Shown here: positions 9,001-15,000 of the stretch, piece after piece
How positions within the stretch are numbered: the stretch's first letter is position 1
Layout of the letters: every line of letters begins with the position of its first letter
DNA from: Candidatus Woesearchaeota archaeon CG1_02_57_44
Lineage (GTDB): Archaea > Nanobdellota > Nanobdellia > Woesearchaeales > CG1-02-57-44
DNA length: 64,000 nucleotides
Direction: 5' to 3'
Assembly (NCBI GenBank): GCA_001871415.1
Contig: MNWW01000066.1
Location: 1 to 64,000, forward strand
Made by a program: the position numbers

Positions 9001-12000
9001 CATCCGACAAGATTCAGATGCGCGCACGATGGAGTTGACAGAACAATAGCGACTCATGGTGCCGTAGAATCACTCACTCGCACGCCCTTGCCGGTCTCTT
9101 CCATAGTCAGACCGACAATACCTGTCGTCCGACCCAGACATAGGATGTGCGAGGCATCCTGCACCTCCATACCCGGAACGTAGCGTGTAAGCGCGCCATC
9201 ACCCTCGCTCGGCAGGATGAAGATGTTCTGACGCGCATGCCCCTGAACGCTCGCCACCACCTGCGGGTATGAGGAATAATAGGAAAGGTCCGTCGTCGTC
9301 ACTGCTGCCAGGTCCACCAGACAGAGCTCTTTGGCGCCCAGTGGCAACGGGAATTCCCGCGACTCCACAGAACCGGAATGCCCGGACACCGCAGCGAGCG
9401 TATTCTCGAACTCGGCAAGAAAACCGGTCATGGCCGCCTCGCTCTGATGCGCGCGCAGGCTGGCCACCGACTTGACACCGAAGACGATGATGATGACCAG
9501 GATGAACGCCGCGGCCAGCATGACGAACGCATGCACAGAGATCTGGGCGCGGACATCGCGACCATGACGCACGCTCGATACATCGCCATCCCAGACCACG
9601 CTCGGCTCAGAGGCGCCCCGCTGCTCTTGTCCCATTCGCCCCTCATCGCCAACACGCATATAAATACCTTGCCACTCCACAGCAGCATGATAACGATAGA
9701 GGAGATGCGAAACCTTGAAGCGCAAGCAGAACGTCACGGTGTGTCGCGCTGGCAGTTGATGCAGAACGCGGGCAAGCAGGCAGCGCGTGTCGCGGCTGAA
9801 GGCAGACCACCGTACCTTGCGCTCGTGCTCTGCTACCACGGCAACAATGGCGGCGACGGCTTTGTCATGGCTGAAGAGCTCGCCGAAAAAGGATGGAAGA
9901 CCACGGTCGCGTTCCTCGGGAGCATGGACAAGTTCAAGGCAGATGGCGAACGCGCATTCGGGAGCATCAGCGGATCACGCATCATCGCTGGCGTCGCGGC
10001 TGCGAAAGAATACGCCGGATTCCTGACCGAGCAGGATATTATCGTCGACGCGATGCTCGGCACAGGAGCGTCGACCTGGCCGGAAGGCCTCAGAGAGCCG
10101 CTGCGCTCTGCTGTCGCCGTGTTCAACGCGTGCGCCGCGCGCAAGATATCGCTTGATGTGCCCACGGGCATCGGCACAGAGCACTGCTGCAGACCTGACC
10201 TCATCATCGCGTTCCATGACGAGAAACGATGGTATACGAATGGTGACACAGATGCTACGCTCATCGCGTCCATCCACGCGAAGACTGTGATTGTCGACAT
10301 AGGCATACCAGCTTCGCAGCAACCTGACACTTCAAGCCCGCAAGCAGGAGCAGAACCAAAGAAATAAATACAGGAACAGAATATCAACAGCCATGGCATC
10401 ACAGAATGAGGCACAGGCGCCATCGCGCGCTGGTAGTCTTCATCAGCAGTGACAGCTCTTTTTTCGTCGACAGTTCAATCATATCAGTAAGCGCGCCATC
10501 AATTCCTGGAAGCGCTGAGGATCCGAGAATAGCGTGGCCTCTGGCACAGGAGCCATCGCAGACAGCCACGCATTTTGCGGACCGTATCCGTGAGGCGGCA
10601 TCACCGTCGCAGATAGACTGCGCTGGTCGTCTTCATCCTGCTCCCGAAGAACAGCGGCTTGCGCAGTATCGCGCAGGAGACACTGCGACTGCTGACCCGG
10701 CCAGGCGAGCGCATGGAGCTTCGCGGCGAGGATATCCCATTCTGGCTTGAGCGACTCTCGCGGCAGGGAACGTCTGCAATAGGCCTGACAGGCCAGGACC
10801 TCTACACGGAATACCTCCTCAGCAGCAAAGCAAGAGCACGATCAACGCAGACCCTGCGCGTGCTGGCAAGCATCTCCTGGCAGGCATCACAGACCCGCTT
10901 TGGCAAACCAGCGCTCTGTCTCATCGGTCCCTCAGATGCGACGCTCCCAGGACTCGCCAGCGCCAGGAGACCGCTTCGCGTCAGCGTTCCCGCAAAATAC
11001 CGCGCACTTGGCAGACGGTACTTGAACACCCTAGAACTGCAAGGCTACACGTTCCTCAAACAATACCTTCGCGGAGGCATTGAAGCGACAATCAAAGCAG
11101 GACTTGCTGACCTAGCCATCGACATCGTCTATACAGGTGATACCTTGCGCGAGATGGGTCTTGCGGTCTATAACATCATCCTGCTGAGCGATTTCTATGT
11201 GCTGGAAACCAGCATGACGGATACAGGTGGCGATACCTATGAGTGACCCAGCCCCTACATGCACAGCAGGTATGCCTTGGCAAGACAGAAGCAGGCCTGC
11301 TGAGGCCCGGTCGCTGCCCGTGCGAGCATGCGTTCGCGCCATGCGCGCCTACGAGCCCCCACTGGAAGAAAGGACAGGCATCCGCCTGGATTTCAATGAG
11401 AACACCCGGGGCTGCTCACCGACGGTGCTTGCGGCCATCCGTTCCATGGACGGGCGCGACATCGCCCAGTATCCATCATATCGCGCACTGCTCACGACCA
11501 TCAGCCGGACCCATGGCCTGGATATCGCGAGCGTCTTGCTCACCAATGGCGCCGACGACGCGCTGCGCGTCATCATGGACGCATGTGTCAGCGCCGGCGA
11601 CACCATCCTCTTGCTGTCCCCCTCATTCAGCGTATACCAGACCTATGCGTCGTTGCGGGAGGCAGTGGTACGATGGGTCCCCTATGAAGACAGCTTCGCG
11701 TTCCCCTTCACGTCGCTGCAGGACGCACTGAGATCACAGTCGCCACGACTCTGCATCATCGCCAACCCCAACAATCCCACGGGCACCACCATCACGCCAC
11801 AAGCCCTCCTCGGACTCACCGCCGCGAATCCCGCGACGCTGTTCATCATCGACGAGGCGTACGCTGACTTCTCCGGGCAGACCTGCCTTTCGCTCCCTCG
11901 ACCAGAAAACATGTTCATTATCAGAAGCCTCTCGAAATCCTATGGACTGGCAGGACTGCGTCTGGGTTTTCTCGTCGCCGCACCAGCAATCGCGACGCAG

Positions 12001-15000
12001 CTGCGCAAAGCCGCATCCCCCTACGCGGTGAACGTCATGGCCGTAAAGGCAGGCATCGCAGCGCTTGAAGACCGACAGTATCTCCGATCATCCGTCAAGG
12101 AGGTCATAGAGAACCGGTCCTGGTTGCGCGCGCAGCTTGGCGTCAGAGGTATACACTCATACCCCAGCGAGGCTAATTTCCTTCTGGTCTCCAACAGCGC
12201 CATCGGCAGACGACGCGTCTCAGACATCCTCTCATCGCGAGGGATACGCACGCGGCGATTTCCTGAGCTCGGCTGTATCCGCGTCACCATCGGCACTGCT
12301 CAGGAATGCGAAATGATATGCCTCGCGCTGGACGGCCGCGATAGCCGAGGAGCTCCTGACGCAGGCACACTACTCTTCGATCTGGATGGAACCTTAATCG
12401 ACATCAGCGCATCCTATTGGGAAGCCATACGCCAGACAGTGACGCAGTTCACCGGAAGGATCGTCTCCGACGATGAGATAACCGTCTATAAGAGCAAGGG
12501 AGGCATGAACAACGAGTGGGACCTGACCCAGACCATCCTCAGCAACAGCTGGACAGACGCGACACGTCGCATCACACGGACACCGCCGAGTCGCGAGACC
12601 ATCATCGCGGCATTCCAACAGGCCTACTGGGACGACGGGCGAGGCCTTATCCTGCAGGAGAAACTACTCGCACCCATTGCGCTGCTCTCGTCGCTACGCA
12701 CGTACTTCCGACTCGGCCTGGTCACGGGCAGACCCCGCAGGGAAACATCATTCACGCTGCGCCGGTTCGGCATCCAGGAACTGTTCAGCACCATCATCTG
12801 CATGGAAGAATGCGCCCGCCAAAAACCAGACCCCTGCGGACTCAGACAAGCGATGAGCGCCACACCCGGACCATGGCGCTACATCGGCGACTGCGTCGAC
12901 GACATGCGCGCAGCGGCGCGAGCGGGCATCCCCTGCATCGGCATCACAACCGCGACACGAGCGCAGGCGTTACGCTTTGCAGGCGCAGCCGCCACGTATC
13001 CATCCGTCATCGCCCTTGGCAAGGATCTTATGGAGCTCGTGGAGCTCAGGCAGTGCCGCACTCCGTTACCTTCGTACCCACCAGCGACAAGACCTGCATC
13101 AAAAAGAACCGCAAGAGGATCGACCCCATGAGAACAGCGACCATGACCCGGACGACCAAGGAAACATCCATCACTGCGCGCATCAATATGGAAGGCGCAG
13201 GCACCGTCGACATCACCACACCCATCGGCATGCTCAGCCACCTGCTCAGTGCGCTGTGCACACATGCGCGATTCGACCTCACGCTCGACGCCGTGGGCGA
13301 CGTCGATGTCGATCAACACCACACGGTCGAGGACTGCGGGCTGGTGCTCGGACAAGCCATCAGCAAGGCCCTCGGCCCGCGCGACGGCATCGCTCGCGCA
13401 GGATGCTTCACCTTCCCCATGGATGAGGCGTTGGCTTTCGCCGCCGTGGACCTCTCGGGTAGGCCCGCCCTGCAATGGCAGGCATGCTTCCGACGTCGCT
13501 TCTGCGGCGGCCTGGATCTGGATACGCTGGAGGATTTCCTGCAGGGCCTGTCCAGAGGATTGCAAGGCGTCATCGCTGTGGACATCCTGCGCGGACGAAG
13601 CGATCATCACATGGCAGAGGCAGGATTCAAGGCGCTCGGAAGAGCGTTGCGCATGGCCTGCCAGGCACAGCCAGGAGGCAACAGCAGCAAAGGTATGATA
13701 GACCGCCTTGACAGCGGCGAGGAAACGTGAGCCGTGACCACAGATATCGGAAGAGGGACCCATGAACACCACTAACACAAAAAAGAAAACAGCCGTGTCG
13801 AACAGGACTGATAACAAGGATCGCCCGCAAAGCGAAATGCGGCCGACCATCGGCATCATCGACTACGGCGCGGGCAATGTGCGCAGCGTCAGCAACGCGC
13901 TAGACGCGCTTGATGCGCGCTGGCGTATCGTCGTTGACCGCGATGAGGCGCAGGACTGCTCTGCCCTGATACTGCCTGGCGTCGGTAGCTTCGGCTATTG
14001 CATGCAGCAGCTTCGCAGACGAAAGCTCATCGCACCCCTACGCTCCGGCATACCGCTGCTTGGCATCTGCCTCGGGATGCAAGTGCTTTTTGAGAGAAGC
14101 GAAGAGAGCCCAGGAGCCAAAGGCCTCTGCCTGCTGGCAGGCGCGGTCGAAAAGCTGCAAGCCAGAAAGGTCCCGCATGTAGGATGGAACCAGGTCTCCA
14201 TGAAACGACCCTGGCCCTCAGGCTACGCGTACTTCGTGCACTCATACTGCATCACAGGCGTAAACTCTGCTGAGGGAATCCATGACGCTGCGACAGCGCT
14301 TGGCACCACCCGCTACGGCACCTGTTTCCGCAGCGCGGTCACGCAGAGCAATGTGACAGGATTTCAGTTCCATCCTGAAAAAAGCGGCAGCTATGGCCTC
14401 GCCTTGCTACGGAGGTGGCTGACATGCTTGCCAAGAGGATAATCCCCTGCCTGGACATCAAAGGCAACCGGGTCGTCAAGGGCACCCGCTTCGCGCAGCT
14501 GCGCGACGCTGGTGATCCCGGCTCGCTCGCGGCTTCGTACGCGGCGCAGGGCGCGGATGAGCTCGCGCTGCTGGACATCTCCGCGACAGGGGAGAACCGT
14601 GGCACATCGTTAGCTGTCGTGTCATCAGTGGCATCGCGCGCATTCATCCCGTTGCTCGCCGGCGGCGGTGTGCGTACGCTCGATGACATCCAGGCGCTGC
14701 TTCGCGCAGGGGCCGATAAGGTGGCCATCAACACGACAGCAGTGCTCAACCCACGGCTCATCACGCAGGCGGCGAAACGCTTCGGCAGCCAGGCCGTGGT
14801 GGTGGCGATTGACGCCCGACGGGCGAACCTGGACGGGCAGATGCCAGGAGCGACGCAACGCAATATCGCATGTAGGCAAGCAGCATGGCAAGTGGTCATC
14901 CGCGCTGGCAGCGAGCCGACACAACTTGATGCATTGTGGTGGGCGCGAATGGTGGAGCGCCTTGGAGCAGGAGAGATCCTGCTGACCAGCATGGACCGCG

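What a model noticed while it worked through the whole genome (the two positions that open the first line are those of the whole stretch)
11239..13131. HisC fused to a HAD-IA phosphatase inside a complete his operon: candidate missing histidinol-phosphate phosphatase
In a seven-gene his operon (hisG, hisC-HAD, hisB(IGPD only), hisH, hisF, hisA-hisIE, hisD; C48:10713-17787) the histidinol-phosphate aminotransferase gene g00984 is fused in frame to a C-terminal HAD-IA phosphatase domain with an intact DxDGT motif. Boldest reading: the HAD-IA domain is the histidinol-phosphate phosphatase (HisN step), channelling the product of HisC; it defines a further, non-HisB, non-PHP, non-IMPase HolPase type. 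New: hisN is the most frequent unexplained gap in prototroph genomes, and this Rosetta-stone fusion names a testable family for archaea and other gap genomes.
Evidence so far: Pfam Aminotran_1_2 aa 47-363 (159 bits; 32-35% id to Swiss-Prot HisC over aa 20-364), Hydrolase/HAD_2 aa 377-569 (64 bits), NCBIfam HAD-IA subfamily; DLDGT at 381-385. Genes overlap or abut (hisG end 11246/hisC start 11239; hisC end 13131/hisB start 13128), hisB has IGPD only, no PHP-family gene in pfam.tsv. The fusion is rare: 6 of 7 hits (itself included) at E<=1e-10 to the HAD part among proteins of 346-1103 aa also carry PF00155. GapMind 2026 (PMC13759103, passages, call 72): hisN missing in 42 of 208 prototrophs.
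(Added by a program. Inside this text positions count along the whole contig: contig position 1 is position 1 of the stretch shown here. "Call 12" and the like, gene names such as g00115 and contig names such as C1 are that model's own, and its searches are not shown. The text may have been shortened before it was handed on; [...] marks where a part breaks off. The agent that wrote the report below was given it as the finding of a first reader that could run no searches.)

Follow-up and report, generated by a model that had tools for sequence, protein, structure and literature searches.

The report
HisC fused to histidinol-phosphate phosphatase
One gene in this small archaeon's histidine operon joins the enzyme that makes histidinol phosphate to a phosphatase of a family already shown to do the next step, so the enzyme type is known and the widespread fusion is the only new part.

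Summary
The fusion is real: one 630-aa frame (11239-13131) with intact HisC and HAD domains in a seven-gene his operon of a probable Woesearchaeota genome. The HAD very probably is the histidinol-phosphate phosphatase, but not a new type. Its best model is TIGR01548 (below cut-off). It groups with Nitrosopumilus proteins encoded between hisC and hisB, the family of the assayed nmHisN (Kinateder 2024), and matches 6 of 7 published cap positions; Trp394 departs at a critical one. The fusion is not rare: 85 of 87 long homologues and 112 of the best 150 cluster representatives carry HisC, and HisG- and HisB-containing triple fusions exist. In 61 same-order genomes the HAD occurs only with hisB (8 of 12, 0 of 49); IMPases do not track the pathway. 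Nothing supports channelling. I found no paper on the fusion; this scan has noted it on other DNA. In passing: hisG has no ATG/GTG/TTG before its first strand and follows two CTT-CAT sites, a layout conserved in relatives that suggests histidine-sensing +1 frameshifting. It is untested, was also noted earlier by the scan, and is more surprising than the fusion.

The parts
11239..13131 (+). hisC-hisN fusion gene, 630 aa
   Evidence: AlphaFold2 model mean pLDDT 90.7, pTM 0.79
11326..12330 (+). HisC domain (aa 30-364): PLP aminotransferase with NPNNPTG 176, DEAY 205, PLP lysine K233, R241, R348
   Evidence: TIGR01141 252 bits, cut-off 277; residues conserved in 128-130 of 130 fusions for D205, K233, R241, R348
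12331..12366 (+). short linker (aa 365-376)
   Evidence: R348-D381 distance is 33 here and 28-29 in 122 of 130 fusions; pLDDT about 80
12367..13053 (+). HAD phosphatase domain (aa 377-605), nmHisN/toHisN-like; catalytic D381, D383, T496, K529, D551, D555; cap I389, Y393, W394, I397, I414, K418, E426
   Evidence: TIGR01548 114 bits; alignments; tree
12418..12420 (+). Trp394 codon at fingerprint position 25 (Asp in Nitrosopumilus, mostly Arg elsewhere)
   Evidence: same letters in contigs of 3 other runs
13054..13131 (+). disordered C-terminal tail and stop, overlapping the hisB start
   Evidence: pLDDT under 50 at aa 608-630
10617..11246 (+). hisG, short divergent form; open frame from 10617, no ATG/GTG/TTG before the first strand; CTG at 10623
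10393..10452 (+). 19-codon leader frame ending shortly after a His codon; first CTT-CAT site at 10438-10443
10620..10637 (+). second copy of the 18-nt repeat; CTT-CAT site at 10631-10636, one base before the hisG frame
13128..13730 (+). hisB, IGP dehydratase only
   Evidence: PF00475 only
13762..14442 (+). hisH
   Evidence: TIGR01855 194 bits
14424..15227 (+). hisF
   Evidence: TIGR00735 318 bits; ATG at 14424
15224..16546 (+). hisA-hisI-hisE fusion
   Evidence: PF00977, PF01502, PF01503
16543..17787 (+). hisD
   Evidence: TIGR00069 461 bits

Best explanation
A bifunctional enzyme for steps 7 and 8 of histidine synthesis. The N-terminal PLP domain transaminates imidazole-acetol phosphate to histidinol phosphate. 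The C-terminal HAD domain removes the phosphate through a phospho-aspartate at D381 with Mg2+ (D383 as acid/base), and its helical cap (Y393, K418, E426) selects histidinol phosphate as in nmHisN and toHisN. Shown here: one frame, intact catalytic residues, family placement, gene order, co-occurrence. Inferred: both activities, the metal and the substrate. The fusion most simply arises from adjacent hisC and hisN genes losing their boundary and gives 1:1 expression; the intermediate is probably released, not channelled.
For: Cap columns I389, Y393, I397, I414, K418, E426 align with I/V, Y, I, I, K, E in Nitrosopumilus-like HADs (Y 78 of 80, K 80 of 80, E 80 of 80), the residues whose mutation cripples nmHisN. 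Generic HADs lack them (0 of 17 with Y or K at those columns). The domain falls in an 87-row group with the Nitrosopumilus, haloarchaeal and deltaproteobacterial proteins, split from 21 generic HADs at SH-aLRT 99. 44 of 56 in-group loci have two or more his genes nearby against 1 of 17 out-group loci; 7 loci were not placed. In the phylum sample 24 of 30 fetched loci hold the HAD between hisC and hisB. Among 61 same-order genomes it is in 8 of 12 with IGPD and 0 of 49 without. The same domain is also fused to IGPD, to HisC plus IGPD and to HisG plus HisC. nmHisN: kcat 0.79 per s, KM 73 uM, nine other substrates not turned over. Best PDB sequence match is 6IAH, a Thermococcus phosphatase with the Y-D..R..D pattern of toHisN.
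Against: No fused member has been assayed as far as I found. W394 replaces the Asp whose loss cut nmHisN kcat/KM about 220-fold; no other family member here has Trp there, and the common Arg variant is itself unassayed and called only 'likely' by the authors. Identity to named Nitrosopumilus proteins is low (21% BLAST; 28-30% on the alignment). nmHisN and toHisN themselves were not obtained: the mapping runs through orthologues, with a one-residue offset between Y and K. Both domain scores are below the curated cut-offs. 12 of 56 family loci have fewer than two his genes nearby. 4 of 12 IGPD-bearing relatives lack the family, and 1 of 5 bacterial carriers tested also has a PHP-type HisJ. The fold search does not single out the family: ranks 1-3 are generic HADs.
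Confidence: 0.87

Rival explanations
1. The domain descends from a HolPase but is weak or dead here because of Trp394; another phosphatase (an IMPase, the GmhB, or a generic HAD) supplies the step.
For: W394 is unique among family members examined. The genome has two IMPases, a HldC-GmhB fusion over the TIGR01656 cut-off and a PGPase-like HAD. A beta-GmhB has promiscuous HolP activity (PMC9798254, abstract).
Against: All catalytic residues and six other cap positions are kept; position 25 tolerates R, D, L, H, V, N, F, M across the family. Both IMPases are below the TIGR02067 cut-off (173 and 161 against 275), lack the aromatic/Asp HisN motif 5 described in PMC5516325 (read by eye) and lie away from his genes. 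IMPases occur in 30 of 49 relatives without IGPD. The GmhB sits in a gmhA-hldE heptose cluster.
Confidence: 0.07
2. The HAD is a house-cleaning or broad-range phosphatase of the operon (for IGP, AICAR, PLP or nucleotides), not the dedicated step-8 enzyme.
For: HAD enzymes are often promiscuous. I recall that the 6IAH enzyme was described as having diverse substrates (recalled; no paper on it found). A second, unrelated HAD sits in relatives' his clusters, so operon position alone does not fix the substrate.
Against: nmHisN rejected nine other substrates, PLP and PRPP among them. No other HolPase candidate is in this operon. The second HAD lies outside the family and is not in this operon.
Confidence: 0.05
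3. One reading: the fusion channels histidinol phosphate from HisC to the HAD site. This concerns how, not what, so it can hold together with the best explanation.
For: Consecutive steps; linker length nearly constant in 122 of 130 fusions; single-chain model pTM 0.79.
Against: Standalone and fused forms are intermixed, even among same-order relatives (4 fused, 3 standalone). The same domain is fused to HisB or HisG-HisC elsewhere, which points to gene adjacency. HisC works as a dimer (established knowledge) and only a monomer was modelled; no inter-domain error map was returned.
Confidence: 0.1

Closest known systems
nmHisN (Nmar_1556), HAD histidinol-phosphate phosphatase of Nitrosopumilus maritimus (Kinateder et al. 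2024, PMC10804674)
   Same: HAD with one helical cap after motif I; gene between hisC and hisB; cap residues Y24, K56, E64, I20, I28, I52 matched by Y393, K418, E426, I389, I397, I414 (through Nitrosopumilus orthologues).
   Different: Fused to HisC; cap about 80 residues shorter; Trp for Asp25; 21-30% identity to the orthologues.
toHisN of Thermococcus onnurineus (Lee et al. 2008, known to me only through PMC10804674 and PMC5516325) and PDB 6IAH (Tt82, T. thioreducens)
   Same: Similar size and small helical cap; 6IAH is the best PDB sequence match and shows the Y-D..R..D pattern at the same columns.
   Different: Standalone; fingerprint YDRD against YWKE here. That 6IAH is a toHisN orthologue is my inference from the pattern.
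TIGR01548 (HAD-SF-IA-hyp1), unassigned NCBIfam family
   Same: Best model for this domain and the only model at E<=1e-12 for named Nitrosopumilus, Halovenus and Syntrophaceae members.
   Different: Score below the cut-off (114 against 140), as for the Nitrosopumilus proteins (76-77); no function attached to the model.
HisNB (HisB-N plus IGPD) of E. coli and other gammaproteobacteria (Fani et al. 2007, PMC1963479)
   Same: A HAD HolPase fused to another his enzyme inside a compact operon.
   Different: Different HAD subfamily (GmhB-like, 20.7 bits on TIGR01656); fused to step 6, not step 7.
HVO_0431 of Haloferax volcanii (PMC4300041; PMC8305020)
   Same: HAD whose disruption gives histidine auxotrophy; TIGR01548 matches a gene in H. 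volcanii (control).
   Different: Standalone; that the matched gene is HVO_0431 was not shown here.

Membership tests
nmHisN/toHisN-type HAD HolPase | HAD catalytic motifs I-IV | tested here: met
   D381, D383, T496, K529, D551, D555
nmHisN/toHisN-type HAD HolPase | Single helical cap inserted after motif I | tested here: met
   Model: helices 17-116 between strands E4-7 and E118-122 of the domain, pLDDT 91
nmHisN/toHisN-type HAD HolPase | Fingerprint Y24, K/R56, D/E64 | tested here: met
   Y393, K418, E426 align with Y, K, E of Nitrosopumilus-like HADs; nmHisN itself not in hand
nmHisN/toHisN-type HAD HolPase | Fingerprint D25 (Arg in the paper's cluster II, judged likely active) | tested here: not met
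   Trp394; so filed as a variant like cluster II, not as a strict fingerprint member
nmHisN/toHisN-type HAD HolPase | Accessory hydrophobic residues I28, I52 | tested here: met
   I397, I414
nmHisN/toHisN-type HAD HolPase | Groups with the family, apart from generic HADs | tested here: met
   87-row group against 21 rows, SH-aLRT 99, quick tree, midpoint root
nmHisN/toHisN-type HAD HolPase | Dephosphorylates histidinol phosphate | not testable with these tools
   needs an assay
TIGR01548 | Score over the curated cut-off 140.2 | tested here: not met
   114 bits, best model by 49 bits
HisB-N / GmhB (HAD-IIIA) | TIGR01656 over 84 bits | tested here: not met
   20.7 bits
HisC (TIGR01141) | PLP-binding residues and his operon context | tested here: met
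   only HisC-like match in the genome by tblastn
HisC (TIGR01141) | Score over the curated cut-off 276.55 | tested here: not met
   252 bits, best model by 62 bits
prfB-type regulatory +1 frameshift (for the hisG leader) | Conserved shift site with slow A-site codon and no in-frame start | tested here: inconclusive
   His codon at the same place in 18 of 21 loci; ATG/GTG/TTG absent in few of them; CTG could serve here
prfB-type regulatory +1 frameshift (for the hisG leader) | Trans-frame protein, responsive to the signal | not testable with these tools
   needs reporter, proteomics or ribosome profiling

The most novel reading that the evidence does not exclude
Outside the flagged gene but in its operon: the operon is gated by histidine-sensing +1 frameshifts. 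A ribosome starting at ATG 10393 would have to slip at CTT-CAT (10438) and again at CTT-CAT (10631) to reach hisG, and would slip more when charged tRNA-His is scarce. The rival is a CTG start at 10623 with a leader that acts otherwise. For the fusion itself the boldest reading is channelling (probability about 0.1, interest about 0.5).
Probability: 0.55. Interest if true: 0.8.

Novelty: new variant of a known kind. Interest (0 to 1): 0.4.

Why it matters
hisN is the commonest gap in GapMind 2026 (42 of 208 prototrophs). The fusions to HisC, HisB and HisG tie the unassigned TIGR01548-like family to histidine synthesis far beyond the archaeal and deltaproteobacterial groups covered by Kinateder 2024: Acidobacteriota (standalone), Gemmatimonadota, Planctomycetota, Myxococcota, Melainabacteria, Aminicenantes, a Microgenomates genome, Woesearchaeota and the stramenopile Hondaea. 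One assay of an Arg25 or Trp25 member would settle hundreds of annotations. It adds a hisC-hisN fusion to the five his fusions listed by Fani 2007. It is useful annotation, not new chemistry. The hisG leader, if it works as it looks, would matter more.

Tried and rejected
A locus search with the full-length protein found nothing. N. maritimus SCM1 was not among the 80 loci, so nmHisN was not aligned directly. The careful tree did not finish; the quick tree of 108 of 452 domains was used, and the number of fusion events was not tested. The fold search cannot separate HAD subfamilies. No complex prediction was run: a HisC dimer of this protein exceeds the size limit. Sigma-70 promoter and terminator scans were at chance level and do not suit archaea. 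Rfam gave nothing at the hisG leader (2 weak matches); no tRNA there in this genome. No RNA holder listed. The second half had an index error and was replaced. The idea that Trp394 or the junction is an assembly error was rejected. The idea that the second HAD of relatives simply replaces HisE was not upheld: 4 of 6 carriers lack PF01503 but 2 have it; its locus search returned generic HADs. Only one HisS/HisZ-family match exists in the genome, so no separate HisZ was found for the short HisG. No family- or genus-level relatives are held. Paper searches for the fusion; none of the listings or passages read describes it. A sequence look-up in the scan's notes was blank.
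Full report
Observation. The frame 11239-13131 reads 630 aa with no stop. It carries an aminotransferase domain (TIGR01141 hisC 252 bits, aa 30-364) and a HAD domain whose best model is TIGR01548 (114 bits; next 65). 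Neighbours are hisG, hisB (IGPD only), hisH, hisF, hisA-hisIE and hisD; each his gene has one copy in the genome. Contigs of other groundwater runs match the junction and codon 394 letter for letter. The genome is 1.53 Mb, 82% complete. Archaeal markers lie in the window and the best Kae1 matches are mostly labelled Ca. Woesearchaeota, so the host is probably a Woesearchaeota (DPANN) archaeon.

The enzyme type is known. Kinateder et al. 2024 (PMC10804674; I read the opening part, passages, sections 9-11 and searched the supplement) assayed Nmar_1556, a HAD gene between hisC and hisB in Nitrosopumilus maritimus. It is a HolPase (kcat 0.79 per s, KM 73 uM) that ignored nine other substrates. An alanine scan gave the fingerprint Y24, D25, K56, E64, with I28 and I52 accessory. 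The Thermococcus enzyme has YDRD. Euryarchaeal and deltaproteobacterial homologues with Arg at 25 were judged likely HolPases but not assayed.

Placing this domain. I reached Nitrosopumilus orthologues through the family model (24 of 30 loci with the HAD between hisC and hisB) and named loci (N. maritimus SCM1 itself was not among the 80). Their I37, Y41, D42, I45, I70, K74, E82 reproduce the paper's spacing with a one-residue offset, and align with I389, Y393, W394, I397, I414, K418, E426 here. Over 149 cluster representatives these columns read Y 143, R 131, K 139, D 148; over 17 generic HADs none has Y or K there. In a quick IQ-TREE of 108 domains the protein lies in an 87-row group with the Nitrosopumilus, Halovenus and deltaproteobacterial proteins, apart from 21 generic HADs (SH-aLRT 99); its place inside the group is unresolved. 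The best PDB sequence match, 6IAH from Thermococcus thioreducens, shows the toHisN pattern. Against: identity to the Nitrosopumilus proteins is 21-30%, and Trp394 has no parallel in the family.

Context. Of 80 genome loci, 56 fall in the family, 17 outside and 7 were too short to place; 44 of 56 have two or more his genes nearby against 1 of 17; 21 of 56 are fused to HisC. Acidobacteriota mostly keep it standalone between hisC and hisB. Among 61 same-order genomes (own included) 12 have IGPD; 8 of these and 0 of the other 49 have the family, all 7 relatives inside his clusters, 4 fused and 3 standalone. Kin are not independent and several genomes are incomplete; four more genomes have a PRA-PH match without IGPD or this HAD. 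IMPases are in 9 of 12 and 30 of 49. Of five bacterial carriers none has an IMPase over the HisN cut-off and one has a PHP-type HisJ.

The fusion is common. 85 of 87 proteins of 346-1103 aa carry PF00155; a profile search found 769 representatives at E<=1e-30, and 112 of the best 150 have a HisC part. Other forms: HisC-HAD-IGPD (P0065; P0072, Hondaea fermentalgiana), HAD-IGPD (P0091), HisG-HisC-HAD (P0250; loci L402, L403, L409). Fused and standalone forms are intermixed in the tree, which suggests repeated fusion or fission; I did not test this.

Other candidates in the genome. Two IMPases score 173 and 161 against a HisN cut-off of 275, lack HisN motif 5 as described in PMC5516325 (passages; sequences). 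A HldC-GmhB fusion passes TIGR01656 but sits in a gmhA-hldE cluster; a beta-GmhB has side activity on HolP (PMC9798254, abstract). No PHP gene was found. These could back up but are poor primary candidates.

Mechanism. Shown: intact PLP and HAD catalytic residues and a confident two-domain fold. Inferred from family chemistry: HisC makes histidinol phosphate; D381 attacks its phosphate with Mg2+; cap Y393, K418 and E426 bind the substrate; HisD finishes. Channelling is unsupported.

Literature. HVO_0431 disruption makes Haloferax volcanii a histidine auxotroph (PMC4300041 passages; PMC8305020 passages and supplement); I did not show that it is the TIGR01548 match in that genome. GapMind 2026 (PMC13759103 passages) gives 42 of 208; its supplements do not name Nmar_1556 or HVO_0431. 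Fani 2007 (PMC1963479 passages) lists five his fusions, none with hisC. The archaeal fusion survey PMC11237513 has no 'hisC' in its main text; its supplements were not searched and may list this cluster. PMC6029752 and PMC2705460 (passages) do not describe it. Lee 2008 and Fondi 2009 were not read. Searches. Earlier notes of this scan report the same fusion on other DNA; they are not independent support.

Found on the way: the hisG leader. The first strand of HisG lies upstream of every ATG, GTG or TTG in its frame, which opens at 10617. An 18-nt repeat (10427 and 10620, spacing 193) holds CTT-CAT-C in both copies. In 23 same-order hisG loci, 21 could be read: 18 have a His codon at the same place in the frame one base behind hisG, 17 of them after ATT or CTT and 16 in an ATG-started frame. 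17 of 21 have a second copy upstream, in a short leader that stops soon after the His codon; 9 of 22 relatives' loci hold a tRNA-His gene. Here, and in three relatives, the +1 frame from the first site is open to the second. This fits a histidine-sensing +1 frameshift of the prfB kind. Against: most relatives have a GTG or other start codon near the strand, and the CTG at 10623 sits where homologues have their annotated start. Two reviews searched do not mention hisG (PMC8211752, PMC5009743 first 300,000 characters; listing). The scan noted this on other genomes; I had formed the idea before that look-up.

Verdict. Real; very probably HisC plus HisN; enzyme type known; fusion widespread and, in the papers I could search, undescribed. 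New variant of a known kind, interest 0.4 for the fusion.

Noticed in passing
window 10393-10660: hisG has no ATG/GTG/TTG before its first strand; two CTT-CAT sites in an 18-nt repeat, each one base behind the next frame. Conserved in same-order relatives (His codon in 18 of 21 loci, upstream copy in 17 of 21). Candidate histidine-sensing +1 frameshift; a CTG start is the rival.
   Followed up: partly
L393, L394, L396-L399, L402, L410, L412: A tRNA-His gene lies within 300 bases upstream of hisG in 9 of 22 relatives' loci; none here.
   Followed up: partly
L220:9599-10222, L221:2977-3630, L224:11576-12205, L225:5771-6385, L228:5704-6309, L229:7400-8062, L071:5157-5762: A second HAD of about 200 aa (PGPase/PpaX-like, outside the family) sits in his clusters of relatives, mostly next to hisH or hisF. 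Three carriers lack the nmHisN-type HAD and four lack a HisE match. It could stand in for HisN or HisE; unexplained.
   Followed up: partly
window 10617-11246: HisG is a short, divergent type (TIGR00070 55 bits, cut-off 76) with about 40 close relatives, several labelled Woesearchaeota; no separate HisZ found.
   Followed up: partly
P0250; L402, L403, L409: HisG-HisC-HAD triple fusions.
   Followed up: partly
P0072, P0065, P0100, P0103, P0091: HisC-HAD-IGPD and HAD-IGPD fusions; the Hondaea fermentalgiana protein is named only as IGP dehydratase and nests among bacterial fusions in the tree.
   Followed up: partly
G000 contig C38 (L391:1885-5074): gmhA, hldE and a HldC-GmhB fusion: an ADP-heptose pathway in an archaeon.
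   Followed up: partly
G004, G012, G051, G055: PRA-PH matches in frames of 330-412 aa in genomes without an IGPD match; partial pathways or divergent hisB.
   Followed up: no
L224:7924-8499 and 11028-11612; L225:7212-7850; L071:3896-5152: Divergent or doubled IGPD-like genes in relatives' his clusters.
   Followed up: no
L062:6935-9004: A family member fused to a WD40 propeller in a Spirochaetes genome, with no his genes nearby.
   Followed up: no
window 8055-8930 (-) and 9378-10367 (+): The two halves of NAD(P)HX repair (dehydratase and epimerase) are separate genes on opposite strands just upstream of the operon.
   Followed up: no
window 60594-61556 (-): PRPP synthetase, which supplies the pathway's first substrate, is on the same contig.
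   Followed up: no
window 743-5782 (-): ArlI/ArlJ-like pilus assembly ATPase and membrane platform genes.
   Followed up: no
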